The notes under the pieces are model-generated. The model was given only the letters and a program-made list of their open reading frames with translations, did not search any database and was not told the origin of the DNA. The position numbers were made by a program, and so were the translations under genes. A stretch of DNA of 64,000 bases, taken from a virus (lineage: Duplodnaviria; Caudoviricetes). The stretch lies in IMG/VR virus record IMGVR_UViG_3300027819_000006; one strand, given 5' to 3'. Below, piece after piece: positions 16,134-56,570 of this stretch (position 1 is its first letter; every line of letters begins with the position of its first letter).

Positions 16134-16835
16134 CTAACTTTTGTCTAATATCTCTTTTAACTCTATATTACTATTTGGTGCTTGAGACTGCCCAAGATCT
16201 GTTACTTTGTAGATTCCATTCTTTTGCATAATATTACCAGAACCAATCCAATCATAAAATTTGATTTTATATTTGCTTAAGTGTTCTGCAGCACATATTA
16301 ATTGTAATACTTCTTTATATCCTAAATGGTTTTTTATCCAATCAATCTTTTCTTTTTCTAAATAATTGTCAGTAATATATCCAAGCAAATTATCTATATT
16401 ACATCTACCATCAAAAATCATTTTTAAATCTTTTTCTACTATATAATCATCTTCATTTTTTAATTTCAAATCCATAAACCAATCTGTAAAATACATATAA
16501 GAATTAACTTTATCTAACTTCTCTTGTTCTATGAACCAGATATCTTTAAATGCTGCATATTTCCACACTCTGAATACTTGTACAATATTAGGGTGTGGAT
16601 GCTGCATAACAATATTCATAGCATTTGCTTCAGTTTTATCAGCAGTAATTTTAAGAACCCGGTCATTTCCGATATAAATTACTACTCCATAAGAACCAGA
16701 GTCTATGAATCTTAGTAAATCATATCCATCAGATTCTAATCTATCTAATACTTGTAGCATTTTGCCTTCTGAATAGTTGAATAATTCTTTAGCAAAAAGC
16801 ATTACTTTGTCTTTTGTTTTAACAGAAGAATCCAT
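16134..16835 (-). CDS. protein-kinase-like fold protein, paralogue K1
   Basis: GSGSYG, VLK, TEA, DWIGSGN, TDLG. Confidence 0.85.
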   Translation of the reverse strand: MDSSVKTKDKVMLFAKELFNYSEGKMLQVLDRLESDGYDLLRFIDSGSYGVVIYIGNDRVLKITADKTEANAMNIVMQHPHPNIVQVFRVWKYAAFKDIWFIEQEKLDKVNSYMYFTDWFMDLKLKNEDDYIVEKDLKMIFDGRCNIDNLLGYITDNYLEKEKIDWIKNHLGYKEVLQLICAAEHLSKYKIKFYDWIGSGNIMQKNGIYKVTDLGQSQAPNSNIELKEILDKS

Positions 16836-16836
16836 T

Positions 16837-17169
16837 TTAATTTTTACCTATTGTAAGCAATATATCATCTATAGTAGTATTTTCATCTAATGTTGATTCT
16901 ATTTCTGTAGCAAATTGAAACTCGCTAGTAGTTCTATTAACAGATATTTCTGCTTTGTCTACCAAATAGCCCTCAACTGTCAAATTATATGTAGTCAAAA
17001 GAATTCTCGGACCATCAGAAAAATCTTGGAGATTATTTTCGTCTGTTGCACTGTCAAATATAGCATAGAAATAGAAACCACCATCTGTCATTATATTTCC
17101 AGGCTGATATTGCTTCCAGATACGCTGCGAGAACAGATTGTTGCTATATTTTATTAGATTTTTTTTCAT
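16837..17169 (-). pseudogene. orphan duplicate of the 3' third of the gp15-like gene
   Basis: about 73 of 102 aa identical (manual alignment) to C-terminus of 17963..18769. Confidence 0.85.
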
Positions 17170-17285
17170 GTTCTAATATTATATCATCAATGGTTATATT
17201 GCTATTTTTATAGAAATTCAATCTAAACTTCATCATTAAAGAATTACAATATATTTCTGCTGATAAACTTTTATTAATCAACTGT

Positions 17286-17828
17286 TCAAGATTTGGAGTA
17301 TATCCTTTTATTTCTTCTATCATCAGTATCTTTAGTGAGACCATCAATCCAAGTCTTTCCGCCATTTGCAAAAAATTTTTTACGTGATTCAGACATGTTG
17401 TGTCTAGCTTTGTCTGACATTTTTCTACCCTTTAAAGCTTTAGATATTTTTTCTCCAAAACTTTTAGGTCTTTTCGTTCCTTTTCTTTTTCTATTACATT
17501 CTATAAGTATAGCTTGAGTTCTGGGATGCATTTTTCTACCTTTTTTGCTTTTAGAAATTTTTGCTCTATGTTCCTTAGAAAGTTTTCTGCCCTTATTAGC
17601 TGCTGATATTTTCTTTTTGTGTTCTTCTGTAATTTTGCAACCTTTTCTAGTCATAGAATGAGCATGAAAAGAGCAGCGGACATTTTCTCCTATTGTCTGC
17701 ACATTACATCCTTCTTCTATACAATGATGAACTATTTTGTCTCTACATGGTTTGCAAACAGTTCCTCCAACATGAATAGTTTTAGCTTGCAATTTATTTA
17801 TTCCACATTCTGAACATAATTTACTCAT
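17286..17828 (-). pseudogene. truncated HEG (Cys N-terminus and NUMOD3 repeats, no nuclease domain seen)
   Basis: ITEEHKKKIS, LSKEHRAKIS, MSDKARHNMS; stops after GGKTWIDGLTKDTDDR. Confidence 0.65.
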
Positions 17829-17838
17829 TTATATCTCC

Positions 17839-17928
17839 ATAAAATAAAAAGCTGAATAGATCGGTCTGCAATGAATTATAATTCAGCAGCTATTCAGCTT
17901 CCTATTTTATGTATCATTGCCAACCGAT
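17839..17928 (-). promoter_or_regulatory. structured HEG leader D (two interleaved inverted repeats)
   Basis: 17849-17859 with 17890-17900 (11 bp) plus 17839-17846 with 17903-17910; 17860-17874 with 17914-17928 (13 of 15). Confidence 0.65.
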
Positions 17929-17930
17929 AT

Positions 17931-17940
17931 TATAAATATA
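17931..17940 (-). promoter_or_regulatory. putative late promoter TATATTTATA
   Basis: recurring motif. Confidence 0.5.
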
Positions 17941-17962
17941 AATGAACGAGATAAATATGTCA

Positions 17963-18769
17963 TTAATTTTTACCTAAAGATATTAAAATATCATCAATAG
18001 TTGTATTTTCGTCTAAAGTTGATTCCACTTCAGTAGAAAATTGAAATTCAGATGTAGTTCTATTGACTTCTATATCTGATTTGCTTATTAAATATCCTTC
18101 TATTGTTAAATTATAGATAGTCTTGTATGTTCTTGCACCCTCTGAAAAATCTTCTTCAGTATTATCTTCATTTGAACTGTCAAATATTGCATAAAAATAA
18201 AATCCCCCATCAGTTTTTATATTTCCTGGCTGATAATTGTTCCAAATTCGTTGATGAAATAAATTGCTACTGGAAACATAAGAACTCCAAAACGAGACAT
18301 AATATTGTATATTAATAAACATGGGATATGGCAATTTATATACTTCATAAACTGGCAAATTCTTCCTATATTGCCCAGCTGGCCCTACATTCCATTTATC
18401 TGAAAAGGGTACTCTTTGAGTGTCATCAAATTTACTTTGTGCTATTCTTTTATGAAATGTAATATAGGGTTTGCCATTTTCACTTCTAACATATCTAGTA
18501 GGATTTGGAGAAATATCTCCTCTTCTAATAGAAATGAGTGGTAATTTTAGCATACCCTTGTGATCTCGAAGTTCATTCAAATTTTTGTCATCAGATCCTT
18601 GTAATTGTACCCATCGCTCCCATGCACCAAATAGAACAGGGACTTTTCTGTCTCTAATTATTAGATTTGTTTTATTTTGAAGAAAAGAAAATACAGATCG
18701 ATCAATTGCTAATAAATCTACACCTTCTATTGGAATATTCATTACATATGGATCTTTAGGTTGAGCCAT
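17963..18769 (-). CDS. gp15: tail terminator / sheath stabiliser (T4 gp15-like)
   Basis: VPVLFG..ERW, LKLPLISIRR, LPYPMFINIQY; position after neck genes. Confidence 0.6.
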   Translation of the reverse strand: MAQPKDPYVMNIPIEGVDLLAIDRSVFSFLQNKTNLIIRDRKVPVLFGAWERWVQLQGSDDKNLNELRDHKGMLKLPLISIRRGDISPNPTRYVRSENGKPYITFHKRIAQSKFDDTQRVPFSDKWNVGPAGQYRKNLPVYEVYKLPYPMFINIQYYVSFWSSYVSSSNLFHQRIWNNYQPGNIKTDGGFYFYAIFDSSNEDNTEEDFSEGARTYKTIYNLTIEGYLISKSDIEVNRTTSEFQFSTEVESTLDENTTIDDILISLGKN

Positions 18770-18777
18770 TTTGATTT

Positions 18778-19653
18778 CTACTCTATTTTAAGTATATTGA
18801 ATTTCTTATATTTTAAATATTGCTCTATTTCGTGATTTGTAGAGGGTATTATTCTATCAAACTGTTTTATATTCTTTTCTATAGCTCTTTCTCTTGGATT
18901 TCTATCTGCTCTAACTCTAAATACTATTCTCTTATCATTTGCCCAAGATCCATACTCTGCAGTATAAAATTTAAATTTACCATCTTTGAAAGTATATGTT
19001 TTTTGTTCTAATATTGTTTTTAATTTCAATTGCTCTAATATATCAGTAACAACTCCACTTGATATAGACATACTTAAATCGATAATTTTATAATATCCAT
19101 TCTTTTGCATTATATTTGATGAATGCCAATCTTTAAAAATTATTTTCATTTCTTTTAAATCATTTGCTGCATCTATCATATTTTTCAAAAATTTTGCTTC
19201 ATTCGGTGCTATATTATTATCGCAGTATAAATTTTTTAATAACTGTTTTGCATTATTTTTATTAACTATACTTAAAGATATAAAGTCATCTGTTATATGC
19301 TCTAACAATTTCCATAATGGCAAAGCAAAATCATTATTATTTCTGAATTTAAATAGCCAATCATCAATGATATCTTTATTTATAGATTTTAACTTTTCTT
19401 GTTCTATAAACCATACATCATTTATTGAATTGAGTTTAAATACTCTAAAAATTTTTACAATATTTTTAAAATTTTTCCCAATTATAATAGAAGACGAATT
19501 AGCTTCTCTTTCATCAGAAGTTATTTTTAGAACTCTGTCGTTGCCTATATCATAAGCATATCCAAATTCTCCTCTACCTATAAATTTTATTAAAACATAA
19601 TTATTTCTTAATAATTTATTTTCTACATCTTTAAAATTTTTAATATTGTACAT
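18778..19653 (-). CDS. protein-kinase-like paralogue K2 with C-terminal extension
   Basis: GRGEFG, VLK, DWHSSN, IDLS. Confidence 0.85.
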   Translation of the reverse strand: MYNIKNFKDVENKLLRNNYVLIKFIGRGEFGYAYDIGNDRVLKITSDEREANSSSIIIGKNFKNIVKIFRVFKLNSINDVWFIEQEKLKSINKDIIDDWLFKFRNNNDFALPLWKLLEHITDDFISLSIVNKNNAKQLLKNLYCDNNIAPNEAKFLKNMIDAANDLKEMKIIFKDWHSSNIMQKNGYYKIIDLSMSISSGVVTDILEQLKLKTILEQKTYTFKDGKFKFYTAEYGSWANDKRIVFRVRADRNPRERAIEKNIKQFDRIIPSTNHEIEQYLKYKKFNILKIE

Positions 19654-19661
19654 AATTTTTA

Positions 19662-20357
19662 TTAATTGAGTAATGTTTTCAATTTAAATTGCTCTAATAT
19701 GTCTGTCACTTTTCCAGTAGATTTAGAAACACCTAAATCTGTTATTTTATAGTTGCCGTCTTTCCATAGAATATTTCCTTCATGCCAATCTCTGAAACTT
19801 ATCCCTACTTTTTCTAAATGCTTTGCAGCATCAAACATGTCTATAATAAAATTGTACTCATCAGATTTCATTTTATGTCTCATGAATGAGCCATAAAATC
19901 TATCTGCCGAAATATAACTCATTTCACGCTTTACAATCATGTCGATTAATTTTTCTGCATCTGTTTGCAATAAACTGTGAAAATGAGAATTGAAATAAGC
20001 TGTATCAGAAATATAAGTTAGTAGCTTTTGAAGTGTGCCTCCAATACTTCTATTTTCATATGATCTTTTGTCTTCTAAATACTGCTCTATCTTATCTTCA
20101 TCTATATGCTTTAATTTTTCTTGCTCAATGAACCAGAGATAGTCTACATTTTTCAACTTAAATACTTTATATATCTGTACAATGTTTTTATGCGGATGCT
20201 TTTGTATCACAGTAGAAGAATTAGCTTCAGACTCATCTTTGGTAATTTTAAGAACTCTGTCATTGCCAATGTCATAGGCTGTGCCATATGTGCCACTGCC
20301 AAGTTTATGATCAAGACTGTAGCCATGTTTAGCTAATCTTTCTTTAATATCAGACAT
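19662..20357 (-). CDS. protein-kinase-like paralogue K3
   Basis: GSGTYG, VLK, DWHEGN, TDLG. Confidence 0.88.
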   Translation of the reverse strand: MSDIKERLAKHGYSLDHKLGSGTYGTAYDIGNDRVLKITKDESEANSSTVIQKHPHKNIVQIYKVFKLKNVDYLWFIEQEKLKHIDEDKIEQYLEDKRSYENRSIGGTLQKLLTYISDTAYFNSHFHSLLQTDAEKLIDMIVKREMSYISADRFYGSFMRHKMKSDEYNFIIDMFDAAKHLEKVGISFRDWHEGNILWKDGNYKITDLGVSKSTGKVTDILEQFKLKTLLN

Positions 20358-20362
20358 TCTAT

Positions 20363-21283
20363 TTATACTATTTCAAATTTTGATAGTTTCAAAGTGCTGT
20401 AATTAGCATCCCATTTAATGGTGCAATTGTGTTTACTATCAGCTTGCATCCATTGACTAAATATTTGCTCTACTAATTCATCTTGAGCCATCATTAGAGG
20501 AGGATCAAATTTAACTCCAGCATCAATCATTCTTTTAACTTGCTGATAGCGATCTTTCTGATCTTCTTTGATTATCTGCTTTAGTTTCATTTCACGCTCC
20601 AATATTTCAATTTTTTGTTGAGGAGATATAGATGCTCCAAGATCTATAAGCATATATCTTCCATTTTTCTGCATTATATTGCCAGAATGCCAATCATGAA
20701 AACGAATTCCATTTTCATAAATATGTTTTGCTGCAGACAACATATCTACAAAAAAAGAGTGAAATCCTTTAGACATTTTTTCTACTTTATATTTTCTATT
20801 TATAAACTCATGTTTATCAACCATTCTCTTTACTATTCCCTCTATATCATAATTTTTAGTTACTGTTCTGCTTTGAGAATAATATGTAAGAATAGATAAA
20901 ATATTTTTATAATATGGAGAATCTTCTGCTTCTTGTATTATTGTGTATAGCAACCATTTGTTTATTTTGTTTTCATCTATGGGCTCTAATAATTCCTCTT
21001 CTTCAAAATAGCAATCTTTTTCACTACTAAATTTAAATACTCTATATACTTTTACTATATTTGGATGTGGATGGTACATAATTATATTCATTGCATCTGC
21101 TTCTGAGTCATCGTCTGTTATTTTTAGAACTCTATCAGAAGATATTTTAAATGCTTTGCCACAAACGCCTGCACCTAAATAGTTACTTAGATGGTAGCCT
21201 AATTTGTTTAGCTTGCTTTCTACTGCACCTATATCTACATGTTCTTTAATTATTTTCATTATGGAACTATTATTCTCCAACAT
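20363..21283 (-). CDS. protein-kinase-like paralogue K4 with C-terminal extension
   Basis: GAGVCG, VLK, HDWHSGN, IDLG; internal MKLKQIIKE. Confidence 0.88.
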   Translation of the reverse strand: MLENNSSIMKIIKEHVDIGAVESKLNKLGYHLSNYLGAGVCGKAFKISSDRVLKITDDDSEADAMNIIMYHPHPNIVKVYRVFKFSSEKDCYFEEEELLEPIDENKINKWLLYTIIQEAEDSPYYKNILSILTYYSQSRTVTKNYDIEGIVKRMVDKHEFINRKYKVEKMSKGFHSFFVDMLSAAKHIYENGIRFHDWHSGNIMQKNGRYMLIDLGASISPQQKIEILEREMKLKQIIKEDQKDRYQQVKRMIDAGVKFDPPLMMAQDELVEQIFSQWMQADSKHNCTIKWDANYSTLKLSKFEIV

Positions 21284-22182
21284 GTGTCAATCTCATCTTC
21301 CCAAACTCTAATTAATCTGTATCCATTATCTTCTGCTAACTTGTTTTTTTCTATATCATTTATAACGACATATTTTTGAGTTTCATTTATGTGACCATTT
21401 ACATATATAGAGGGCTTACAGTGCCAATAACAACCATCTACTTCTATAAGAATATTATATTCTGGTAAATAGAAATCATAAAATTTATTTTTACTACTCT
21501 TTATAACAAATTGTTGTATATATTTTATGTTGTTTTCTTCTAATATTTGCTTTAATTTTAATTCAGGTTTTGTATTTCTGCCGCAAAACATTTTATGTCT
21601 ATTATTTTTCATTCTTATGCTGCTTTCTATAGCTGCTTCAGGATGCTCTAAATAATAAGCTTTTTTTGTTTTTGATATAAGATTTTTCGTTTCTTTTGTA
21701 TGTTTTTTACCATAGAATGGATTTTTATCTCCAATTTTAAGTTTTTGTTTTTCAGACATTTTAAATCTAGTTTCAGCAGTATGGTGTTTACCATACAGAG
21801 GATGATTTTCTCCCTTAATACTATCACTGATTTTTTTCTTATGTTCTTCTGTCAGAGGTTTTCTTTCGCTATTATATATTTCTTTAAATCTATCTTCTCC
21901 AAGATATTCTTTCATGTCGAGGTTTTTATTCCATGTTTCATTTTCAGAATAATATTGTTTATTGCTCTCAGATATAAGATCTTTAGTTTCTTTTGTATGT
22001 TTCTTATTATAAAAACCATTACCTGCGCCCATCTTAGAAAGTCTAAGTTCTTCAGAAAATATTGGAGCATCTGGAAATCTTGTTCTGTATTCAAGAGTTG
22101 TAATGCTATGTTTACTTTTCAAGTGAGATGGCGTGATAAAATTAAATTTTTTATCTTTCGGACATAGTTCGCAATTTATCAT
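21259..22182 (-). CDS. homing-endonuclease-like protein (NUMOD3, DUF559/Vsr-like nuclease)
   Basis: HTKETK repeats; YDFYLPEYNILIEVDGCYWH. Confidence 0.85.
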   Translation of the reverse strand: MINCELCPKDKKFNFITPSHLKSKHSITTLEYRTRFPDAPIFSEELRLSKMGAGNGFYNKKHTKETKDLISESNKQYYSENETWNKNLDMKEYLGEDRFKEIYNSERKPLTEEHKKKISDSIKGENHPLYGKHHTAETRFKMSEKQKLKIGDKNPFYGKKHTKETKNLISKTKKAYYLEHPEAAIESSIRMKNNRHKMFCGRNTKPELKLKQILEENNIKYIQQFVIKSSKNKFYDFYLPEYNILIEVDGCYWHCKPSIYVNGHINETQKYVVINDIEKNKLAEDNGYRLIRVWEDEIDTCWRIIVP

Positions 22183-22196
22183 ATACCTCTAAAAAA

Positions 22197-22751
22197 TCAA
22201 TAAGGATTTTGGGAATCGTGCTCTATTTCATTATTATTTTCATCAATATTAGATCTAGGATTGAAGACATCTTGTCTTACACTATAAGCTTTTAATAAGA
22301 CTGATACTTTTCCCTGCGGGACACCAAAAAAGAATTTAGGTACACCGGCATAGTTTATTTCGAAAAAAGCTCCGTCATATTCTAAATAGTCACCCACTTT
22401 AGGATCTATACCTAATTCTGTCATTCTGTCTTTGTGTGCGCTTACTTCAATTGTGCGAGGGCTTTCTGTTGTAAATGCTCCAGTAGTATTTTCTACTCTG
22501 TCTAGCATTACCCATGCATAGAACATCACTGGCTGTCTAGATATTTTCTTTTCTGCCTCTCCATAGATATCATTACCATCTGTTAAAGTTCTATCAATCA
22601 TCCAATAATTAAGATTTTGCAATTGTACTATTTCTAATAGAGAAGTATTAACATAGTTCACATAAGCCATGGTGCGAGCATCAAAAAATAGAGAATATTT
22701 AGGATCTGACGTTGTAGAAGAAAAAAGCGAAGCCATTATATTATTCTCCAA
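22197..22751 (-). CDS. gp14: neck / head-completion protein (T4 gp14-like)
   Basis: DIYGEA..K, PKVGDYLEYDGAFFEI; between gp13- and gp15-like genes. Confidence 0.55.
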   Translation of the reverse strand: MENNIMASLFSSTTSDPKYSLFFDARTMAYVNYVNTSLLEIVQLQNLNYWMIDRTLTDGNDIYGEAEKKISRQPVMFYAWVMLDRVENTTGAFTTESPRTIEVSAHKDRMTELGIDPKVGDYLEYDGAFFEINYAGVPKFFFGVPQGKVSVLLKAYSVRQDVFNPRSNIDENNNEIEHDSQNPY

Positions 22752-23447
22752 ACTATATCTATTTCATCTTCCCAAATACGAATTGGTCTATAACCATTGT
22801 CTTCAGCAAGCTTATTTTTATATTCATCATTTTCTGTTCCATATGGATAATTATGCCAATATTTACCGTCAACTTCTATTAACAGATTATGTTCGATAAT
22901 ATAAAAATCAAAAAATTTACCTTCTACATTGAATTGTTTTACATATGATAAATTCATACTTTGTAAAATTTTTTCTACTTTTTTCTCTGGTTTTGTATCA
23001 AAAAATTGTCTACTATTATTTCTTCTACCTTCATTATAAGCTACTTTCAATGAAGAGCTTATTTTTTGTTTCATTTTTTCAGGCAAATGTATATTGCTAT
23101 TCCAGGGTTTTCTTCCTTTACCAGCTTTACTGAGATTATTTTTATGACTTTCTGTTAGATGTTTTCCTTTATTTTTCTTTCCTATGTTTCTAATTTTTTC
23201 TCTTTTTTCTTCAGTATATGCTTCTTTCATTTTATTTTTAGTTTCTTCAGACCTTGTACTGCCTGTCTGAGCTATAGAAGCTCTATTTCTAAGACCTATA
23301 GATTTTAAACAACATAAATTATATTCAGTTTTATACTCTACCAATGTCATTTCATGCTTTTTCAAATGAGTATGTTATTTCTTCAAAAAATTTGTGACAA
23401 ATTTGGCATTCTATTTTTAATTGATTGTTGTCTAATAAATCAGCCAT
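22736..23447 (-). pseudogene. HEG with frameshift near 23370 (NUMOD3, DUF559-like)
   Basis: ATG 23447 gives MADLL...CQICHKFFEEIT; second frame continues THLKKHEM...FDFYIIEHNLLIEVDGKYWH. Confidence 0.7.
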
Positions 23448-24084
23448 TTTGTAATATCTCTTTTAATTCTATATTAGCTTTTTTTGCTACTTCTGAAAAC
23501 CCTAAATCTATTAGCTTATAACATGAAGCATCTTTCATAACATTTCCAATATGATAATCGTGAAATTTTATTCCAACTTTATGCAAATGTCTAGCAGCTT
23601 GTACCATATCTTCTAAAAATCTCTTTGATATAGCAGATAAATTCTCTAATATTCTGAGCTCTTTGTTATAGAAATATCCATTTAACAATATTTTATCTAT
23701 GACATCAAATCTTCCCTGATATAATAGATCTGCTATTCTGATATCTGGTCCTTTTTCTTCTAATTTAATAAAGTTTTCTAATAGGTCGTCTATTGTAATT
23801 TCTTCTTCATCGCTCAGTTTCTGCAATCTTCCCTCTACAATATAGTATAAATCCTTGTCACTCTTGAACTGAAATACTTTATAGACTTTGACTATATAGT
23901 CTGAAGGATATTCTTTTATGATAGCCATTGAATTAGCCTCAGATTCATCACTTGTAATTTTTAGTATTAGAGCATTGTTAATTCTATAAGCTACTCCTCT
24001 AGTATCAAAACCTAACATTGATTTAATGTCAATATTCTCTTTTGATAGTTTCTTTCTCAACTCTTTGTTAACTACTATTTTCAT
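23440..24084 (-). CDS. protein-kinase-like paralogue K5 (degenerate Gly loop)
   Basis: GFDTRG, ILK, SEA, HDYHIGN, IDLG. Confidence 0.8.
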   Translation of the reverse strand: MKIVVNKELRKKLSKENIDIKSMLGFDTRGVAYRINNALILKITSDESEANSMAIIKEYPSDYIVKVYKVFQFKSDKDLYYIVEGRLQKLSDEEEITIDDLLENFIKLEEKGPDIRIADLLYQGRFDVIDKILLNGYFYNKELRILENLSAISKRFLEDMVQAARHLHKVGIKFHDYHIGNVMKDASCYKLIDLGFSEVAKKANIELKEILQNG

Positions 24085-24712
24085 TGTAATTCTAAATATT
24101 TTAACATATATGTTAGAAATTTTTTATATATAATACCACCTATTTCATGATATATTTTACTTGTATTATTTACTTCATATAAATGTTCTGTAATATGCAA
24201 AGAATGATTATTTTCTAATTCATCTACTACCATATCTCCTATTTCATCTATATCATAATCTTTTACTAAAACTTGTATTGCATCATTAGCTTGTGCCTCT
24301 ATTTCATTTTCTCTCGAATAATAAGTCTTATCATCTAACTGAGTAACTGTTTCGTGGTTATTTTGTTTAGCATGAATCAATTCATGCTTATAGATAGATT
24401 CAAATTCATCAATAAATTCTTGTAAATTGTTTTCATTTATTTTTGTATATTTGTCTATAAAGATTATGATTTTTTTCTTATTATATTCATACCCTCCACC
24501 TGCTAAAATTTTATCATATTTTCTTTTTTTATTTGTATACATAAATTTTATATTGTATTTTTCAAGCAAATCGTTTAGATTATCTATAAGCCCCTGATTG
24601 TCGAAAGTTTGAATAATACACCTTTTTTCTTTAAAAATAATATCTTTAATATAAAATCTTTAAATATATTTTCTTTTAATAATAATTTCAATTTCATGTT
24701 GTCTGTTTCCAT
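24081..24712 (-). CDS. HExxH metalloprotease-like protein with MKLKLLLKE leader; one-base frameshift at 24653-24656
   Basis: HELIHAKQ...ENEIEAQA; 5' frame METDNMKLKLLLKE joins by adding one T. Confidence 0.55.
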
Positions 24713-46457: not shown

Positions 46458-48197
46458 TTATACACTTGAGGGTGAACCTAAAAATCCGAGATCCGACACT
46501 GTAACTGTCCCATAATAGTCTGCTCTGACCATGGCTAGAGCCGATCTTTGCATAACGCCTTTCCGTGGAGTAAAGTCATTTGGCTCGAATATTGTCGGTG
46601 TAACAATTAACGGTACATAGGGTGCATATACGAATCCTGCATCTAGTGCTCCCGAACCCTTATACCCTAACAGAATCTTATTGACTGGGAAATAAGGATC
46701 TTTGTATACAGTAAATCTATTTACAAGTGTTCCAACTTTCTCAATACCAAGACTATATTGAACCTCTGAAGGGTCAAATGTAGCATTTGGTTTGAATGTA
46801 GCAATGCTTTCAATAATTGAGCAGACATCTGGAGATGTTACCATCCAGTTTGCACCTGATCTCATATTTCTCTTGTGGATCTCATTGCTTACAGTTGTAA
46901 CAGTTTCGCCTAATGTTTGATACCATTCTTGCTGAGTTCCGAAGAATGCTTGATAGGTGAATGATGTATTTGCAGAACCAGCAGGAATTACTGTAGAAAC
47001 TACATCATTAGCATTCCATTTTACATATCTACCGATAACTCTTGACCATGCAGCTCTTACTGCGGCACCTGAAAGTAGCATTGCAAGAATATTTCTGTCT
47101 ATTTCTGTGGTGATTACTTCAGATAGAATTGTTGTCAATTCTACTTCTGCATCAAGAGCATGATAGGCATTTAGATCTTGTGCTAGTTCAGGAGTCCAGA
47201 TAGCTTTTAGTTTTCTTGTCTCAGCATTTACAGCAATTGAAGAAACTGATATATTGATTTCTGGAATTGCAGATGTTGATTCAAAATCACCTAAACTATT
47301 TGAGCCAGAGTCTACTGACACAACAGTTCTTCCTGGACCAACTATTACTCCTGCAGTTACTGAACCGTCAGACCATGATTTGTCTGGTCCTGGCCAGTTT
47401 GCATTAGGTCTCTTTAAGAATACTTGGATTAGAGCTCCTGTTAGTACAGTCATTGTATGATCCATGTCTCCGAAGAAAGATCCACCTGTTAGTGAGTGCA
47501 GAGCTCTTAGAGTTCTGAATGTTTTTGTACCATCTTCATTTAGCTCACCAGATGCAGCACCTCTGATTTCCATAAGAGAACCAATATCTGTTGCAGCTGA
47601 AGAAGCTAGTGTAAAGTTATAGCCTGAAACAGTTACAGAACCTAACATTTCTGAAGTAGCTGTTACACCAGAGTATGTAGGAGCTGCTGTAGATAGAAGA
47701 AACATTCTTTTTGAATAACCAGTTTGCATGTTGTAGAATCCACCGGATGCGTTCTGTTCACCTACGGCATGTAACTGTGCATTATTATTTGGAGGACCAT
47801 TTTCAAAGTTACCATAGACAGATCCACCACCAGTGAATCCTGCTCTTGTACGATCAAATTTGAAATCAAGATAGAAAATCAAACCTGATGGCAAGCTCAT
47901 CGGTTGTACAGATACTAGTTCGTTGGCTAATAGCTGTCCGAATACTCTTCTTACTAGTGGGAATGCAATCTTTTGAAAGTTTGCGATATCTCCAACTTGC
48001 GAAGCAGATTCGTTCATGGTTCTTCTTAGTTCAATTGCTTGGTTTTCAAGCAATCTTGCCATAATAGGAACTTTGTTGTCAGGTAGCTTTTTTAGCAGTC
48101 CTGTTCTTGACCATTTGGCAACGAGTCTTTTTGCTTCCTCGTTCATGTTTCTTTCATGATGGTCTCTAGTCATTTCTAGAATAAGTTTGTCGTTCAT
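46458..48197 (-). CDS. gp23: major capsid protein (T4 gp23-like)
   Basis: RLLENQ, LVRR...LANELVSVQPM..PSGLIFY, AETRKLKA.WT.ELAQDL, FVYAPYVPL, F.PRKGVM.R. Confidence 0.97.
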   Translation of the reverse strand: MNDKLILEMTRDHHERNMNEEAKRLVAKWSRTGLLKKLPDNKVPIMARLLENQAIELRRTMNESASQVGDIANFQKIAFPLVRRVFGQLLANELVSVQPMSLPSGLIFYLDFKFDRTRAGFTGGGSVYGNFENGPPNNNAQLHAVGEQNASGGFYNMQTGYSKRMFLLSTAAPTYSGVTATSEMLGSVTVSGYNFTLASSAATDIGSLMEIRGAASGELNEDGTKTFRTLRALHSLTGGSFFGDMDHTMTVLTGALIQVFLKRPNANWPGPDKSWSDGSVTAGVIVGPGRTVVSVDSGSNSLGDFESTSAIPEINISVSSIAVNAETRKLKAIWTPELAQDLNAYHALDAEVELTTILSEVITTEIDRNILAMLLSGAAVRAAWSRVIGRYVKWNANDVVSTVIPAGSANTSFTYQAFFGTQQEWYQTLGETVTTVSNEIHKRNMRSGANWMVTSPDVCSIIESIATFKPNATFDPSEVQYSLGIEKVGTLVNRFTVYKDPYFPVNKILLGYKGSGALDAGFVYAPYVPLIVTPTIFEPNDFTPRKGVMQRSALAMVRADYYGTVTVSDLGFLGSPSSV

Positions 48198-48241: not shown

Positions 48242-48499
48242 CTAAAGTTGTTTATGTACTGCTTTTTGAAGTGTTTTACCTATTTCTTCTAAATGCTCGC
48301 CTATTTCTAAAATATATTCTGCATCTTCCTCGCTTATTGAGCTAACTTGTTGAAAATACATATCAAAACCTATAATATCTTTATCTATTTCCATCAGTTT
48401 TTGAAGTTTATTTTTGGTTGTGACAGAACTTTCATTTTCTAAAAGTTGGTTAGATTTTATTTCTTCTTTAATCAATTTTCTTAGTTGTTTTATAGTCAT
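48242..48499 (-). CDS. small head-associated protein with MTIKQLRKLIKEE leader
   Basis: shared N-terminal motif. Confidence 0.7.
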   Translation of the reverse strand: MTIKQLRKLIKEEIKSNQLLENESSVTTKNKLQKLMEIDKDIIGFDMYFQQVSSISEEDAEYILEIGEHLEEIGKTLQKAVHKQL

Positions 48500-48505
48500 T
48501 GAAAT
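48462..48505. repeat. 44-nt exact direct repeat (second copy 49044-49087) encoding MTIKQLRKLIKEE
   Basis: direct comparison. Confidence 0.9.
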
Positions 48506-48540
48506 TGAAATTTCCTTATTCAGACTAAAGTTGTTTTTGT

Positions 48541-48849
48541 TTATTTTAGTAAATTCTTTACTTTGATTTTGAAATTATTACCTTTTGATACTTCTTTTAT
48601 TAAATCTGTTATTTGCTCTGCTGCATAATTAGATGCAGCTCCTGGAGTATATACATTTTTACCAACATCTCTTGCTAACATTTCGTGAAGAATTAGAGCA
48701 ACATTTTCTAATGCTATGTCTAAATCATCAAATATTTTTGTGCTTATTTCTTCTTTAATAATTTTTTTCAATTCTGTTTTTGTTATAGTCATTGTATCTC
48801 TATTTATTAAAATGGCTTGTATATCTTTTAAGAAAAGATATTGCACCAT
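48541..48849 (-). CDS. small protein with MTITKTELKKIIKEE leader (start probably internal Met)
   Basis: shared motif. Confidence 0.65.
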   Translation of the reverse strand: MVQYLFLKDIQAILINRDTMTITKTELKKIIKEEISTKIFDDLDIALENVALILHEMLARDVGKNVYTPGAASNYAAEQITDLIKEVSKGNNFKIKVKNLLK

Positions 48850-49081
48850 TCCCTACTTTGTAATTAGTTTTAAATTGTTCAAACATATGGCTTAATACAG
48901 AAAACATTAATTCATCTCTTTTATCGCCATCTTGTATTTTTGGAATATTAATTTTTAAAGCTTTTACAAATTCATCAGCTTTTTCATTAATTATATCAGA
49001 AACTCCAGCTTCCCAGCTTTCATTGCCAGGTTCTTTACCAAGCTCTTCTTTAATCAATTTTCTTAGTTGTTTTATAGTCAT
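48800..49081 (-). CDS. small protein with MTIKQLRKLIKEE leader
   Basis: shared motif. Confidence 0.7.
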   Translation of the reverse strand: MTIKQLRKLIKEELGKEPGNESWEAGVSDIINEKADEFVKALKINIPKIQDGDKRDELMFSVLSHMFEQFKTNYKVGNGAISFLKRYTSHFNK

Positions 49082-49149
49082 TGAAATCTCTTTTGTTTTA
49101 GAATGTTTGAGCAGTAGTTTTTTAAAGTACTGCTCAAGTTTGATTCACT

Positions 49150-50208
49150 TTATTTAATCCCTGCCAATTCTTCTAGTCTAGAACCTTCAGATTGTCTGTC
49201 TTCATTCATTTGAGATCTTGTTGACTGTACATTTCTTGAAACTTTTTTGTCTCTTCTTACTGCTGGTCTTACAGAAGCAATACCTTCTTTCAGTGCACTG
49301 TATACTTTCTTCACTTCTAGAATTGTAGAAGCCTCATCAAATCTGTCAATTACTCTTTCTTGTTGTTTTCTGCTCATGGGAGTAGCTTTCAGAAGTTTTG
49401 TAGCATATACAAGTCTTGCATTGAATAGGTTGACCTCATCAATTCTTTTCTTTAGAATTGTCAGAGCTCTTTTGTGTTCAGATAAACTTCTTTTCATCTT
49501 TCTGCTGTTTCTGTATTCTAGTCTTAGTTTTCTGCGAAGAGATTCTTCAACCTTGTCTTCTTCCTCTTCATCATCCTCATCTTTGGTTTCAGATACTGGA
49601 TGTGGTCGCGGTTTGTTTCTACCTCTTCTGCATCTTTCTTCTAGCTCTTCTTTGTCGTCATCATCATCTACAACTTCAATGACTTCATCGTCCTCATCTT
49701 CATCATCCTTTGCTTCATCCATGTCTTCTTCATCATCATCTACTTCCATCATCTCATCAAGATCATCTTCATCTTCGTCTTTTGCCTCTTCCATATCCTC
49801 ATCTTCCTCATCGTCAACTTCTAAAGTAAGAGCTTCATCCATGTCGTCTTCATCATCTTCTTCGTCTTTGTCTTCTGTAACTTCTACTTCGTCATCATCT
49901 TCATCGTCTACAGAAGCTTCCACTACATGATAAGGACCTGGATCACCGTCACCTTCTTTTGAAAGATGTTCTTGAGCTTCTGCATCTTCAGGATCACCAT
50001 CTTTTGGATTTTTTCTCTTCTGCTCGCCATCTGCATCATAACCCTTAGGTTGGTCTGCATTAATAGCAAGTTCTTCATTGATAGTTCTTGATAGTTTTGA
50101 TTGAAGTTGGCTTTTCATAGCTTCGGCTAAAGTTGATTTAGCTGATTCTAGAGCTACTTCTTTCATTTTCTTTGCTGATCTGATTGCATCTTTTACGATA
50201 TCTGCCAT
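49150..50208 (-). CDS. gp22: prohead scaffold protein (T4 gp22-like), very acidic centre
   Basis: immediately upstream of MCP; A..AK..L.EA N-terminus, EVNLFNARLVY...FDEA..I.EVK C-terminus, ends ELAGIK. Confidence 0.8.
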   Translation of the reverse strand: MADIVKDAIRSAKKMKEVALESAKSTLAEAMKSQLQSKLSRTINEELAINADQPKGYDADGEQKRKNPKDGDPEDAEAQEHLSKEGDGDPGPYHVVEASVDDEDDDEVEVTEDKDEEDDEDDMDEALTLEVDDEEDEDMEEAKDEDEDDLDEMMEVDDDEEDMDEAKDDEDEDDEVIEVVDDDDDKEELEERCRRGRNKPRPHPVSETKDEDDEEEEDKVEESLRRKLRLEYRNSRKMKRSLSEHKRALTILKKRIDEVNLFNARLVYATKLLKATPMSRKQQERVIDRFDEASTILEVKKVYSALKEGIASVRPAVRRDKKVSRNVQSTRSQMNEDRQSEGSRLEELAGIK

Positions 50209-50270
50209 CTGTTAAATCTCCATTTGTTTTTGTTTAAATTGTTATACTTGAAACAGTTACATTTTCATAA

Positions 50271-50280
50271 TATAAATATA
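50271..50280 (-). promoter_or_regulatory. putative late promoter TATATTTATA
   Basis: upstream of scaffold and MCP. Confidence 0.6.
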
Positions 50281-50310
50281 CATGAATTTTAAGAAAAGAC
50301 ATTTTATAGT

Positions 50311-50569
50311 TTAAAATTTATTATCTGGATGGTTTATTTTAATATTCAAAAATCCTTCTAATTTATCCATAGATTCTACTGCGGTTTTATAAAATTTGTC
50401 TGCTGTAGATCTATCATTTGGACCAAGTTTAGCAACAAAGTCTTCTATCAAATCATAATATTCGTTTTTTACATCTTCTAATCTGTCATAAAGTGTATAT
50501 TCTTTTAAAACTTTCTTTGATTTGTTCAACTCTTCTTTTATCAGCTCTCTCAGTTCTTTTTTTTGTCAT
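50311..50569 (-). CDS. small protein with MTKKELRELIKEE leader; apparent +1 indel in A8 run (50557-50564)
   Basis: removing one A joins ATG 50569 to ORF 50311..50529. Confidence 0.55.
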
Positions 50570-50573
50570 TATT

Positions 50574-51101
50574 CTATTCTCCATTAATTATTATTGTTGC
50601 CACAGTTCCCAAATATTTTACTTTGATCTGAATATCGTCATAGTACCGTAATAATTTATTTCTCATCAATTTTGTCAAATCTTTCATAAAGCTCAAATCT
50701 GATTTAGATCTTGTCTTCTGTTTCTGTTCTTTAAAATCTATTATATAATCATCACACAACCACATGCCTTTGTTGAATGCTGGCATATCTGTTTTGAATT
50801 TTACAATTTTCTTTTTAGGTGCATTATAAACATGTCTCTTCCAACTCTTTACTTTTTTGAATGCTTCTATAGCTTGTACTAATTTGAATTGAACTAATTT
50901 TCTAATTATTCCTCTATGTATTGGCTTGAAGTCATTTCTGTGAAAGTAGAAAGATAGTTCTATATTAGCATCGCTACTACCAAAATATTTAGTACGCACC
51001 TCGATGTGAAAAGGAACATTTATGTCCGATAACTGAAAATCTTCTTTGTCACCTTTTCTGTCAAGAAATAAATCTCTTTTTGCTTCTGATAAATTGATCA
51101 C
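50574..51101 (-). CDS. hypothetical protein
   Basis: 175 aa ORF. Confidence 0.65.
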   Translation of the reverse strand: MINLSEAKRDLFLDRKGDKEDFQLSDINVPFHIEVRTKYFGSSDANIELSFYFHRNDFKPIHRGIIRKLVQFKLVQAIEAFKKVKSWKRHVYNAPKKKIVKFKTDMPAFNKGMWLCDDYIIDFKEQKQKTRSKSDLSFMKDLTKLMRNKLLRYYDDIQIKVKYLGTVATIIINGE

Positions 51102-51286
51102 ATTAGTTCTCTGCCATCTGATGTTTTACGTCTTCTTCTTTTTAGTCTTCTTTTCTGAGATTTTGTAAGGTAAAAATCTGATTTACGTATTTCTTGCATG
51201 CGCCCCTCAAACTTCATCTGTCTTTTAAATCTTTTCAGCAATCCTTCTGCTGATTCATTGTCATATGCTTTTATGTATAAGCTCAT
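51098..51286 (-). CDS. rpsU: ribosomal protein bS21 homologue
   Basis: NESAEGLLKRFKRQ...EIRKSDFYLTKSQKRRLKRRR pattern; location in head module. Confidence 0.8.
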   Translation of the reverse strand: MSLYIKAYDNESAEGLLKRFKRQMKFEGRMQEIRKSDFYLTKSQKRRLKRRRRKTSDGRELM

Positions 51287-51296
51287 TTAGTTCTTT

Positions 51297-51752
51297 CTAT
51301 TGTTTCTTTTTTGGACCATACATCGCATTTGAGATCGCGAATGGATTTGTAGGTTTGGTTTGGCCTGTCTTTTTATCTTTATATGTCTTTGGTATTTGTC
51401 CAGTCTGTACTCCTTTTTTGATTCCTTTTATCATTTTTTCTCTGTCAGCTTCTACATCTTCAGATATTTCTGTATCGCATTCTTCTACAGCATGAGTATG
51501 ATGCATTGCATTTTCCTGAATAAAAGTTTTTATTTCTTCATCTGATATTCCTTGTCTAATTTTTTTATTGAATGCAATTTTTACCATGTTTAGAAGCTCA
51601 TCTTTATCTAATATCCCATTTTCCATATGTAAAGCTATAAATTGAGATATGGCTGATTCTGCCATTTTTCTGAGATTGGGAGATGTAGCTTCTGCAATAG
51701 ATATTTTCGATACTTCTTCTTTTATAATTTGTTTTAATTGTTTTATTGTCAT
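51297..51752 (-). CDS. protein with MTIKQLKQIIKEE leader
   Basis: shared motif; NPFAIS C-terminus. Confidence 0.7.
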   Translation of the reverse strand: MTIKQLKQIIKEEVSKISIAEATSPNLRKMAESAISQFIALHMENGILDKDELLNMVKIAFNKKIRQGISDEEIKTFIQENAMHHTHAVEECDTEISEDVEADREKMIKGIKKGVQTGQIPKTYKDKKTGQTKPTNPFAISNAMYGPKKKQ

Positions 51753-51763
51753 TCATATTTCTC

Positions 51764-52180
51764 TTAATTAAATTTGAACTTGCTTAATGCTTCACATATT
51801 TCTAGTATTTTATCATTCGAATATCCCTTGAGAAATCCGTGCAAATCAATCCAATTACCAGGTCCACCCATAGCATTTGGCGTGATTTTAATGTAACTAT
51901 TTATTCCCAATTTTATAATAACTTCTCCTTTTTCTTTGTATCTGTTTTCATCTACTTTAAATCCCAAAGATGCAAAATGTTCAATAGTATCTGATATTTT
52001 TGCTTCGTCTTTATCTTTTTCTAGAGCATTTATACCAGCTTGATCACCAGCTTTATATAGCTCTTTTTCTTTATTTTTAAGATTTTCTTGTCTAGGTCCA
52101 TTTACAGAAAAATTTACATATTCTTTGAGATTTTTCTTCAATTCTTGTCTTATAGTTTCTCTTAATTGCTTTATTGTCAT
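51764..52180 (-). CDS. protein with MTIKQLRETIRQE leader
   Basis: shared motif. Confidence 0.7.
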   Translation of the reverse strand: MTIKQLRETIRQELKKNLKEYVNFSVNGPRQENLKNKEKELYKAGDQAGINALEKDKDEAKISDTIEHFASLGFKVDENRYKEKGEVIIKLGINSYIKITPNAMGGPGNWIDLHGFLKGYSNDKILEICEALSKFKFN

Positions 52181-52181
52181 T

Positions 52182-52838
52182 CTATTTATCCAAGCTTGCG
52201 ATCAACACATTAGCTTCTTTTTTAACAGCGTCCATAGCTTTTTCTGCTACTCTTGACATTTTTACAAGATTTGCAACTTTGATCCTAAACTCTTTCAAAT
52301 TGTCTGGATCCATTTTCTCTATCTTTTCTGCTATAGCACTCTGAGAAGATCCCACATACCAGTATCCGCTTTTGCTAGTGAGAAGATTAGCTATATTATT
52401 AAATTGTTTTAACCAAGCTTGCCAAGTATTTGCTACTTTTTTAGCTTCTTCTTTGCTCAATCCTTTTGTTTCTAGTCCTGGATCTTTATAAATAGCTTCT
52501 TGTATCATTTTCTTTAATTCTGATCTTGTTATCTGCATTACTTTATTCTCCATAGTTTGTTTGTTTTCTAATTGTATCCATTCAGGTTTCACTCTTATCA
52601 CATCATTACTACCTTCAAAATTTATAAGAGTAGGATCATTATCTACTAGATAAGCTTGTCCATTTCTACTCATATTTTGCAATTGTTGAGGTGCTTTTGC
52701 TGTAATCATAACTTGTCTTTCATTTCTCTTTCGATAATCTTCTCTTCTTCTAAATTGCATTTCTTTAATCTCTTCTGTCTCATATATGTCTAGAAGTCCA
52801 GGTTCGTAGTAGACGTACTTTTTCTTCTTTTTCATCAT
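52182..52838 (-). CDS. protein with internal MQITRSELKKMIQEA motif (possible fusion or internal start)
   Basis: motif at about residue 100. Confidence 0.6.
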   Translation of the reverse strand: MMKKKKKYVYYEPGLLDIYETEEIKEMQFRRREDYRKRNERQVMITAKAPQQLQNMSRNGQAYLVDNDPTLINFEGSNDVIRVKPEWIQLENKQTMENKVMQITRSELKKMIQEAIYKDPGLETKGLSKEEAKKVANTWQAWLKQFNNIANLLTSKSGYWYVGSSQSAIAEKIEKMDPDNLKEFRIKVANLVKMSRVAEKAMDAVKKEANVLIASLDK

Positions 52839-53146
52839 GTTTGTTTGTCAAATAAAATCACAGAATATACTAGTTTTTTATCAAGTAATATTTCTCCTAA
52901 TCCTTTATTTGTTTCTTTTACTACTAATGTTTTTCTATTCACTTTCAATATTTCACCAAAAGAACCATCCATACCTCCTCGAACTGGTATTCCAAATGTA
53001 ACTCTAGTTCCAACTTGATAGTCAAAATTTAATTTATCTTGAACAGAATTAAGTTTAGTTTCATCAATTCCATGATCTTTTGGATTATATTCTTTCAAGC
53101 TTTTAACTTCTTCTTTAATCAGTAATTTAAGTTCTTTTATTGTCAT
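52835..53146 (-). CDS. protein with MTIKELKLLIKEE leader
   Basis: shared motif. Confidence 0.7.
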   Translation of the reverse strand: MTIKELKLLIKEEVKSLKEYNPKDHGIDETKLNSVQDKLNFDYQVGTRVTFGIPVRGGMDGSFGEILKVNRKTLVVKETNKGLGEILLDKKLVYSVILFDKQT

Positions 53147-53156
53147 TTTATATTCC

Positions 53157-53669
53157 TCATTCTAAATAGCGGCTAAAATCTATATTTTCAGGATCTATTT
53201 TTCCAGTAGCTACATCTTCTGCTTTAATTTCTGATACATCTACTACTGGTGTAGACAGTATTCTATTTTCTCTTTCTAATATTTTATTATTTATTCTTTC
53301 TGCTGGATCAACTGCATCCATTACGAGATCAGCAAGCATGTCATTGCCAAACAGTTTCTTGGCTACAGCAGCGCCTTTTTGTCTTGCTGCCATTTCATGC
53401 TGTCTTCTAGCTACAGCTTCTTTTGCTTCTGAAACATTATTGCTACTTGTTTTTTTTGCAGGAACTCTTTCTGAAGGTTCATCATCTTCAAGTTCATCAT
53501 TTTCATATAATGATCTGACTTTCTTACTTCTACTGATAACAGATTCATAGACTAAATCTTTGACTGTAGCTTGGACTTCTTCTTTGATAATTTTTTTTAT
53601 TCTTGGTAACAGAAGTTTTGCTACTTCCAATGCTATATTTTTTGATAATTGTTCTGTACTAACTTTCAT
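53157..53669 (-). CDS. conserved head-module hypothetical protein
   Basis: IKKIIKEEV...LVYES. Confidence 0.7.
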   Translation of the reverse strand: MKVSTEQLSKNIALEVAKLLLPRIKKIIKEEVQATVKDLVYESVISRSKKVRSLYENDELEDDEPSERVPAKKTSSNNVSEAKEAVARRQHEMAARQKGAAVAKKLFGNDMLADLVMDAVDPAERINNKILERENRILSTPVVDVSEIKAEDVATGKIDPENIDFSRYLE

Positions 53670-53676
53670 GTTTATC

Positions 53677-56563: not shown

Positions 56564-56570
56564 TTTATTT

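What the first reader, a model, noticed from the sequence alone, without database searches (positions are those of the whole stretch)
16134..24712. Kinases carry the head-protein leader motif at their C-terminus or internally
Seen: directly after the kinase domain, K4 reads EILERE-MKLKQIIKE followed by an unrelated tail of about 60 aa. K2 reads DILEQ-LKLKTILE plus a different tail. K3 ends DILEQ-FKLKTLLN, and K1 and K5 end NIELKEILDKS and NIELKEILQNG. K4 also starts IMKIIKE. This matches the motif that begins about 16 head-module proteins. Established: in T4 a short capsid-targeting sequence cleaved after Glu by gp21 directs internal proteins into proheads, and Alt is a packaged, injected modifying enzyme. 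Inference: the motif is a position-independent packaging tag, and kinase cassettes were fused in front of former leader-bearing genes.
Basis: partly seen in the sequence, partly recalled or inferred. Interest (0 to 1): 0.72.

Follow-up and report, generated by a model that had tools for sequence, protein, structure and literature searches.

The report
Phage kinases fused to capsid-leader genes
In an uncultured 272-kb T4-like groundwater phage, two of five small protein-kinase genes have merged in frame with the next gene, which carries a capsid-loading-type leader; that explains the "internal leader", but nothing yet shows that it loads the kinases into the capsid.

Summary
All quoted strings are in the sequence. 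They are not one phenomenon.

- **K1 and K5:** NIELKEIL is the kinase family's own domain-end motif (I-D/E-h-L-E about 14 residues after DLG) plus five residues. It is not a leader, and K1's sister-phage orthologue ends NIEIRENK.
- **K2:** a kinase fused in frame to a small gene. In a sister phage (structural proteins 73-83% identical) that gene stands alone and starts MKLKLLIEQ exactly where K2 reads LKLKTILEQ.
- **K4:** also a fusion. Its sister orthologue has a full head-type leader (MNLSKLKKIIKEEI) between the kinase and the tail domain. K4's MKLKQIIKE is the only kinase site that clearly beats controls under a head-leader matrix.
- **K3:** its 9-residue tail is a truncated copy of K2's junction.
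- **52182-52838:** a third in-frame "X-leader-Y" chimera, in the head module itself.

Across 146 relatives elsewhere, leader-like matches are enriched at the N-terminus (odds ratio 9, p=2e-6) and just after the kinase domain (odds ratio 5.6, p=0.0025).

The fusion inference is supported. The position-independent packaging tag remains untested. T4 Alt's C-terminal propeptide is a precedent. The scan has already reported the N-terminal leader family on other stretches of this genome.

The parts
16134..16835 (-). K1, mini Hanks-type kinase (233 aa). Its end NIELKEILDKS (16137-16169) is the family domain-end motif plus 5 aa, not a leader. It has a 25-aa N-terminal extension.
   Evidence: The sister orthologue is 64% identical and ends NIEIRENK.
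18778..19653 (-). K2, a chimera of a kinase (aa 1-208), a former leader LKLKTILEQ (19003-19029, first codon TTG) and a small conserved domain (18781-19002).
   Evidence: Two independent assemblies give the same 291-aa ORF.
19662..20357 (-). K3, a stand-alone kinase. Its 8-9 residue tail (Q)FKLKTLLN (19665-19688) is collinear at the DNA level with K2's junction, and its stop codon lies where K2 reads CAA.
   Evidence: K2 and K3 are sister paralogues. The AF2 tail has pLDDT 63/47.
20363..21283 (-). K4, a chimera. The likely start is Met9 (21259), giving a leader-like N-terminus MKIIKEHVDIGAVE (21218-21259). Then come the kinase, the internal leader MKLKQIIKED (20561-20590, with GGAG 6 nt upstream) and a 65-aa tail domain (20366-20560).
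23440..24084 (-). K5, a kinase (214 aa). Its end NIELKEILQNG (23443-23475) is the domain-end motif. It has no N- or C-terminal tag.
24081..24697 (-). An HExxH-type gene whose MKLKLLLKEN leader (from 24697) is out of frame with the body (24081-24569) across an A-run.
48242..58987 (-). Head module, with at least 12 small ORFs that begin with the leader M-T/K-I-(T)-K/R-x-Q/E-L-R/K-x-h-I-K/Q-E-E/A.
   Evidence: Leave-one-out scores are 8-26 bits.
52182..52838 (-). A third in-frame 'X-leader-Y' chimera. A conserved head-module N-domain (aa 1-100) is followed by a canonical internal leader MQITRSELKKMIQEAI (52491-52538) and a different C-terminal module.
   Evidence: (19.0 bits, not in the training set). 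The L014 homologue shares only aa 1-116 and has no leader there.
56650..57264 (-). T4 gp21-type prohead protease.
   Evidence: phrog_207, E=4e-47.
46458..48197 (-). T4 gp23-type major capsid protein.
   Evidence: phrog_138, E=3e-67. It is 36-38% identical to the capsid proteins of Flavobacterium phage immuto and uncultured phage LR756508.
49150..50208 (-). Candidate scaffold (gp22 position, immediately upstream of the capsid gene). It has no family hit.
   Evidence: Position only.

Best explanation
The kinase 'leaders' are mostly scars of gene fusion. The five genes belong to a large phage family of truncated Hanks-type kinases. The domain ends about 14 residues after DLG, in a conserved S-P-x-x-x-I-(D/E)-h-L-E. 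They lie in a tightly packed late neck/tail operon among genes with capsid-targeting-type leaders. In K2 and K4 the kinase ORF runs in frame into the next gene, so that gene's N-terminal leader became internal. K3 is a duplicate of the K2 kinase plus the leader stump, closed by a stop codon. K1 and K5 simply end in the family motif. The remaining steps are inferred. T4-type prohead proteases cut after (L/I)-x-E wherever the site lies. The kinase end (ILE) and the leader end (IKE in K4, ILE in K2) would therefore be cut if the chimera enters the prohead, releasing the kinase and the small protein separately. That would make such fusions tolerable and could carry the kinase in as a passenger. 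Entry of the kinases into the capsid is plausible but unproven.
For: Shown: kinase identity. The alignment keeps Gly-loop G25, K37, D190, N195 and D207 invariant or nearly so. A profile matches solved protein kinases through the catalytic loop and DFG at E about 1e-10. The AF2 model has pTM 0.82 and matches APH(2'') and eukaryotic-type kinases. Shown: the family end motif is seen in most repeats of 150 relatives. Shown: K2 fusion. Stand-alone homologues exist, and P0151 reads MKLKLLIEQTYTFKDGKF... against K2's LKLKTILEQKTYTFKDGKF..., 79% identical over 82 aa. The syntenic sister locus L094 has K4' followed directly by this gene with an ATGA overlap and lacks K2 and K3. Shown: K4 fusion. The sister K4' reads IEILEKK-MNLSKLKKIIKEEIQYIKED- followed by a homologous tail. 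K4's site is the only strong matrix hit. Shown: K3's tail is collinear with K2's junction at the DNA level, and K2 and K3 are sisters in the tree at 91/78 support. Shown: K1 and K5 tails fit the end motif, and K1' ends NIEIRENK. Shown: the same architecture occurs outside the kinases, in 52182-52838. It also occurs in other kinase lineages: P0098, P0083 and P0088. Context: the gp21-type protease, gp23-type capsid protein and gp13-type neck protein are present. All the kinases abut or overlap their neighbours.
Against: The direction of the K2 event is inferred from a single sister phage. A loss of K2 and K3 in the sister that recreated a start codon is unlikely but not excluded. K4's tail has no stand-alone homologue. 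Met right after the end motif is not enriched across the family (2 of 30 and 19 of 162, close to expectation). A short amphipathic tail follows LE in about 28% of repeats, including GC-rich polyproteins, so part of the resemblance may be a family trait rather than a scar. K2's small domain is as conserved as the structural proteins (79%). This hints that the internal leader still has to work, which favours the rival.
Confidence: 0.6

Rival explanations
1. One reading: the motif is a working, position-independent capsid-targeting and processing tag. A C-terminal or internal copy binds the scaffold core like an N-terminal leader, loads the kinase, and is then cut at the adjacent (I/L)-x-E.
For: Using the window's leader matrix on 146 relatives from other phages, hits are enriched at the N-terminus (9 of 1898 against 67 of 126,849 positions, odds ratio 9, p=1.9e-6). 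They are also enriched 5-30 aa after DxG (6 of 11,544 against 11 of 118,663, odds ratio 5.6, p=0.0025). P0098 carries IKRIVKEEV after its kinase and ends in VKNIVKEELKESYV. Many multi-kinase polyproteins start with MxxLDELIxEA-type leaders. K3's tail is not packed onto the fold (pLDDT 63/47). K2's fused domain stays 79% conserved. T4 Alt loses 63 C-terminal residues at LTE-619, and prohead proteases lose C-terminal targeting regions (PMC5694885; PMC9026906).
Against: Four of the five tails do not beat controls. K1's tail is not conserved in its orthologue, and K5 has no tag. K4's internal leader carries a 10-residue indel relative to the sister. The 8 tail residues of K2 and K3 are no more conserved than the rest of the protein (5 of 8 identical, p=0.32). 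In related head modules C-terminal copies are rare (7 of 214).
Confidence: 0.25
2. The tail is an intrinsic, optional C-terminal helix of this kinase family with a regulatory or oligomerisation role. It resembles the leader only because both are K/E/I/L-rich amphipathic helices in a 30% GC genome.
For: LE followed by an amphipathic stretch recurs in distant relatives, including GC-rich ones such as PPVLEKIIRETLEEL. The kinases' own N-terminal helix scores 7.9 bits (KELRKKLSKEN). Shuffled proteomes give about 2 hits of 9 bits or more.
Against: About half of the stand-alone relatives stop at or right after LE, and only 28% of repeats have the amphipathic pattern. K2's motif is positionally identical to the start of a separate gene in the sister phage. 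K4' has a full canonical leader beginning with Met.
Confidence: 0.1
3. The internal Met of K4 is a live start codon. The tail would then also be made on its own as a 75-aa leader-bearing protein nested in frame within the kinase ORF.
For: GGAG lies 6 nt upstream of the ATG in K4 and 7 nt upstream in K4'.
Against: That GGAG is encoded by the conserved Leu-Glu codons, so it need not be under selection as a ribosome-binding site. K2 has TTG and a poor spacer.
Confidence: 0.05

Closest known systems
Phage T4 capsid targeting sequence (CTS) of IPI, IPII, IPIII and Alt, processed by the gp21 prohead protease
   Same: A short leader ending in (I/L)-x-E sits on many unrelated proteins next to a gp21-type protease, a scaffold and a gp23-type capsid gene. 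Fusions behind a CTS-bearing protein are packaged in T4 (PMC9026906).
   Different: Here the copies of interest are internal or C-terminal, and they arose by natural gene fusion. Neither targeting nor cleavage has been shown. The leader consensus (MTIKQLRKLIKEE or MKLKxLLxE) differs from T4's MKTYQEFIAE.
C-terminal propeptides of T4 Alt (cut at LTE-619) and of prohead proteases (T4 gp21, SPN3US gp245)
   Same: A packaged enzyme loses a C-terminal piece at an x-E site. The C-terminal region is thought to tether or target the protein (PMC5694885).
   Different: Alt's propeptide is 63 residues long and is not reported to resemble the N-terminal CTS. The kinase tails are 5-9 residues, or are whole fused genes.
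Hanks-type (eukaryotic-like) Ser/Thr kinases and APH-type kinases
   Same: The Gly-rich loop, the VxK lysine, the helix-C Glu, the D-x-H-x-x-N catalytic loop and DLG are all present. Profile and fold matches support this.
   Different: The domain stops about 14 residues after DLG. There is no activation segment, APE, helix F or helices G-I. A helical insert of roughly 100 aa precedes the catalytic loop. Pfam Pkinase reaches its cut-off only in K3. The substrate is unknown.
Proteolytically processed ejection proteins of phiKZ-like giant phages (201phi2-1, SPN3US)
   Same: Large head-packaged proteins are cut at x-E motifs into fragments that stay in the head (PMC5694885).
   Different: The capsid lineage and the cleavage motif (S/A/G-x-E) are different, and no kinases are reported among them.

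Membership tests
T4-type capsid targeting sequence (CTS) | An N-terminal propeptide of 10-19 residues | tested here: not met
   The kinase copies are internal (K2, K4) or C-terminal (K3). Only K4 has a possible N-terminal one (MKIIKEHVDIGAVE, 9.2 bits).
T4-type capsid targeting sequence (CTS) | Ends in (L/I)-x-E, the gp21 cleavage motif | tested here: met
   At the sequence level only: K4 has IIKE and ILE, and K2 has ILE twice. K3 has ILE before the tail, but the tail itself ends LLN. Cleavage itself cannot be tested.
T4-type capsid targeting sequence (CTS) | The phage encodes a gp21-type prohead protease and a gp23-type capsid | tested here: met
   phrog_207 at E=4e-47 and phrog_138 at E=3e-67.
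T4-type capsid targeting sequence (CTS) | Sufficient to load a passenger protein into proheads | not testable with these tools
   This needs virion proteomics or reporter packaging.
This phage's head-module leader family | Scores like true leaders under a matrix built from them (leave-one-out 8-26 bits) | tested here: inconclusive
   K4 scores 9.4-11.5 bits, within the range. K2 scores 5.0. K1, K3 and K5 score 0 or below over 11 columns. K2 and K3 fit the MKLKxLLxE subtype seen in P0151 and at 24697 instead.
Hanks-type protein kinase fold | Gly-rich loop, catalytic Lys, D..N catalytic loop and DFG-type Asp | tested here: met
   G25, K37, D190 and D207 are invariant and N195 is nearly so in 47 sequences. 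Matches to solved kinases reach E=1e-10. Foldseek probability is 1.0.
Hanks-type protein kinase fold | A complete C-lobe (activation segment, APE, helices F-I) | tested here: not met
   The proteins end 14-25 residues after DLG. The model has no helices after DLG apart from a low-confidence 5-residue one.

The most novel reading that the evidence does not exclude
The leader works wherever it sits. An internal or C-terminal copy docks the whole chimera onto the scaffold core. The prohead protease then cuts at the kinase-end ILE and at the leader's I-x-E, so one ORF delivers a kinase and a second effector into the capsid. By extension, the widespread polyproteins of 1000-2500 aa with 2-7 kinase repeats, leader-like N-termini and leader-like helices after kinase repeats would be capsid-loaded, protease-resolved arrays of injected kinases.
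Probability: 0.25. Interest if true: 0.75.

Novelty: new variant of a known kind. Interest (0 to 1): 0.5.

Why it matters
I found no report of a protein kinase packaged in a phage head. If these chimeras are loaded and cut, kinases would join ADP-ribosyltransferases such as Alt among enzymes injected with the DNA. Without that, the comparison with the sister phage still shows how cargo genes are shuffled. The short leader marks module boundaries. In-frame mergers at or before it have happened at least three times within 64 kb. A position-blind protease would make such mergers harmless. This gives a testable rule for reading large multi-domain proteins of giant phages as strings of former cargo genes.

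Tried and rejected
- **Complex prediction:** candidate scaffold (49150-50208) with full-length K4 scored 0.00, so there is no verdict either way.
- **Whole genome:** none is held, and the ENA record cannot be searched by handle. I could not build a genome-wide leader model or verify the MKLKxLLxE leaders that earlier notes report elsewhere in this genome.
- **K3 in annotated phages:** tblastn found no match.
- **K4 tail:** no homologue was found by the word-index search.
- **K2 tail domain:** no Pfam family, no atlas hit, and no significant fold match (AF2 pLDDT 81, best Foldseek E=0.6).
- **T4 late promoter TATAAATA:** not enriched, 23 sites against 16 +/- 4 expected.
- **Met after the LE motif as a family-wide fusion signature:** not enriched.
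- **Extra conservation of the K2 and K3 tails:** 12 of 15 identical (p=0.012), but this comes from the kinase-end part. The 8 tail residues alone give p=0.32.
- **Contexts of P0003, P0011, P0152 and P0154:** uninformative. They lie in a replication module, on a short contig, in a bacterial genome, and in another large phage without an adjacent kinase.
Full report
**Setting**

The window is about 30% GC and almost all long ORFs lie on the minus strand. It is part of a 271,885-bp ENA metagenome contig.

The head genes are distantly T4-like:
- The major capsid protein (46458-48197) matches phrog_138 at E=3e-67. It is 36-38% identical to the capsid proteins of Flavobacterium phage immuto and uncultured phage LR756508.
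- The portal gene (59889-63617) carries an HNH-like insert.
- A gp21-type prohead protease lies at 56650-57264 (phrog_207, E=4e-47).
- A gp13-type neck protein lies at 26387-27613.

The five kinase genes lie between the neck and tail-completion-like genes. They abut or overlap their neighbours and are interleaved with NUMOD3/Vsr-type homing endonucleases.

**The observation**

All quoted strings are present. The head-module leader is real, and at least 12 ORFs between 48.2 and 59 kb carry it.

I built a position matrix from those 12 leaders, leaving out the N-terminal MTI columns. Leave-one-out scores for true leaders are 8-26 bits. The kinase post-DLG regions scored as follows:

| Kinase | 11 columns | Comment |
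|---|---|---|
| K4 | 9.4 bits | 0.17% of 32-residue windows in non-head proteins reach this. With 7 columns it scores 11.5 bits, which no non-head position reaches. |
| K2 | 5.0 bits | Not significant |
| K1, K3, K5 | below 0 | Motif truncated by the protein end. With 6-7 columns, K1 and K5 ELKEIL lie at the 2-10% level and K3 at 40-65%. |

Shuffled non-head proteomes give about 2.2 positions of 9 bits or more. The kinases are paralogues (31-40% identical to K1), so they do not count as independent observations.

**What the kinases are**

A profile of the five kinases finds 1744 proteins at E<=1e-3 among 1.8 billion representatives, and 642 at E<=1e-10. Many hits are 1000-2500 aa proteins with 2-7 kinase repeats.

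The family keeps the Gly-rich loop, the catalytic Lys, the D-x-H-x-x-N loop and DLG. It matches solved protein kinases at E about 1e-10. The AF2 model has pTM 0.82 and resembles APH(2'') and eukaryotic-type kinases.

The domain is truncated. About 14 residues after DLG comes a conserved S-P-x-x-x-I-(D/E)-h-L-E, and many members stop there or within a few residues. In the K3 model, confidence is 94 through ...VTDI and falls to 63 and 47 over LEQFKLKTLLN. The tail is therefore not part of the fold.

**K1 and K5**

NIELKE aligns with IEILE, DILE and IEDIRE, which is the family end motif. The sister-phage orthologues end NIEIRENK (K1', 64% identical overall) and NIELKEII (K5', 76%). These two kinases carry no leader. 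K5 also has no N-terminal extension.

**K2**

Residues 213-291 have stand-alone homologues. The closest is P0151 (82 aa, 79% identical). It reads MKLKLLIEQ-TYTFKDGKFKFYTAHYGSW..., while K2 reads LKLKTILEQKTYTFKDGKFKFYTAEYGSW....

P0151 lies in L094, a syntenic sister-phage contig without the homing endonucleases. Its gene order is gp13, GNAT, K5', Kx, the 179-aa protein, K4', P0151, the gp15-like protein, K1'. Its structural proteins are 73-83% identical to the window's. There, K4' is followed directly by P0151 with an ATGA overlap, and K2 and K3 are absent.

K2's first leader codon is TTG where P0151 has ATG. More distant homologues of this small domain, one of them in a bacterial genome, lack the leader. 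In the AF2 model the leader residues are disordered. The leader therefore behaves as an add-on module. Two independent assemblies give the same 291-aa K2.

**K4**

The sister orthologue reads IEILEKK-MNLSKLKKIIKEEIQY-IKEDQKERARQ..., a full head-type leader followed by a homologous tail. K4 has the shorter MKLKQIIKED. In both phages GGAG lies 6-7 nt before the Met, but it is encoded by the conserved Leu-Glu codons.

**K3**

K3's last codons (...GAG CAA TTT AAA TTG AAA ACA TTA CTC AAT TAA) are collinear with K2's junction (...GAG CAA TTG AAA TTA AAA ACA ATA TTA GAA CAA). The K3 stop lies opposite K2's CAA. K2 and K3 are sisters in the tree at 91/78 support. The eight tail residues are no more conserved than the rest of the protein.

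**The same architecture elsewhere**

- In the head module, 52182-52838 has a conserved N-domain. At residue 101 it has MQITRSELKKMIQEAI (19.0 bits, not in the training set), followed by a different C-terminal module. Its L014 homologue shares only residues 1-116 and has no leader there.
- In another phage (L008), three tandem kinases include one with IDVLEQ-IKRIVKEEV- plus an extra domain that ends VKNIVKEELKESYV. A second has LDVLE-IKNIIKEI- plus a tail.
- P0088 reads DIREHK-MKLQELI- plus a tail.

**Does the motif act as a tag?**

Evidence for:
- On 146 relatives from other phages, the window's leader matrix is enriched at the N-terminus (odds ratio 9, p=1.9e-6).
- It is also enriched 5-30 residues after DxG (odds ratio 5.6, p=0.0025).
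- Many polyproteins begin with MxxLDELIxEA-type sequences.
- K2's fused domain remains well conserved.
- T4 Alt loses a C-terminal propeptide at LTE-619 (PMC5694885).

Evidence against:
- In 80 related head modules the motif is N-terminal in 97 of 214 hits, although N-terminal positions are only 6% of all positions. It is C-terminal in only 7.
- K1, K5 and the K1 orthologue show no constraint on the tail.
- K4's internal leader carries an indel relative to the sister.
- Met after LE is not enriched across the family.

The complex prediction gave no verdict.

**Verdict**

The internal and C-terminal "leaders" of K2, K3 and K4 are best explained as products of in-frame fusion with leader-bearing neighbours. 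K1 and K5 are false matches.

Whether such leaders still load and process the chimeras is open. I put it at about 25%, and it is experimentally testable. Earlier notes of this scan on the same genome had already described the N-terminal leader family (e1-5338668, e1-5338746, e1-5338737). The MKLK-type leader list in e1-5338737 led me to compare the K2 and K3 tails with that subtype. I could check that only through P0151 and the copy at 24697.

Noticed in passing
window 50311-50570: The gene called from TTG at 50529 is preceded by ATGACAAAAAAAAGAACTGAGAGAGCTGATAAAAGAAGAG. With one A fewer in the A8 run this reads MTKKELRELIKEEL in frame with the ORF. So a canonical leader is separated from its gene by a homopolymer frameshift. 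This could be an assembly error, slippage or decay.
   Followed up: partly
window 24081-24736: The MKLKLLLKEN leader ORF and the HExxH-type ORF (HELIH) are in different frames across an A-rich run (AAAGAAAAAAGG). One base change would join them.
   Followed up: partly
window 16837-17169 versus 17963-18769: The 110-aa ORF duplicates the last roughly 100 residues of the gp15-like gene (72% identical). The two copies flank the homing endonuclease at 17286-17828. This fits the 'replaced gene end plus stub' pattern noted elsewhere in this genome.
   Followed up: partly
window 22736-23365 versus L094 2325-2939: The slot that holds a sixth kinase (Kx, ending NIEDIRETMKLKEVL) in the sister phage is occupied by a homing-endonuclease gene in the window. 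The sister locus has no endonucleases between gp13 and K1'.
   Followed up: no
P0003-P0086; L003 8783-12181; L004 8156-12151: A large uncharacterised family of phage polyproteins (1000-2500 aa) has 2-7 copies of this truncated kinase domain. They are often combined with an HxGH nucleotidyltransferase-like segment (GRFQPFHKGHA) and a conserved Ser/Gly-rich C-terminal region (GSSGWS).
   Followed up: partly
L094 3555-4517: The sister K4' has an internal duplication at its N-terminus: NNIGYYSQTYLGHGAMGKA is repeated as NNIGYYLQTYLGHGVMGKA, doubling the Gly-loop region.
   Followed up: no
window 59889-63617: The portal ORF is 1242 aa, with four separate matches to the portal profile and an HNH-endonuclease-like segment at residues 388-475. 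This suggests intein-type or other insertions.
   Followed up: no
window 58999-59868: This conserved 289-aa head-module protein has leader-like stretches at residues 106 (TDHKKLIKEKV) and 258 (QKLKNVLKEEL), the latter about 30 residues from its C-terminus.
   Followed up: no
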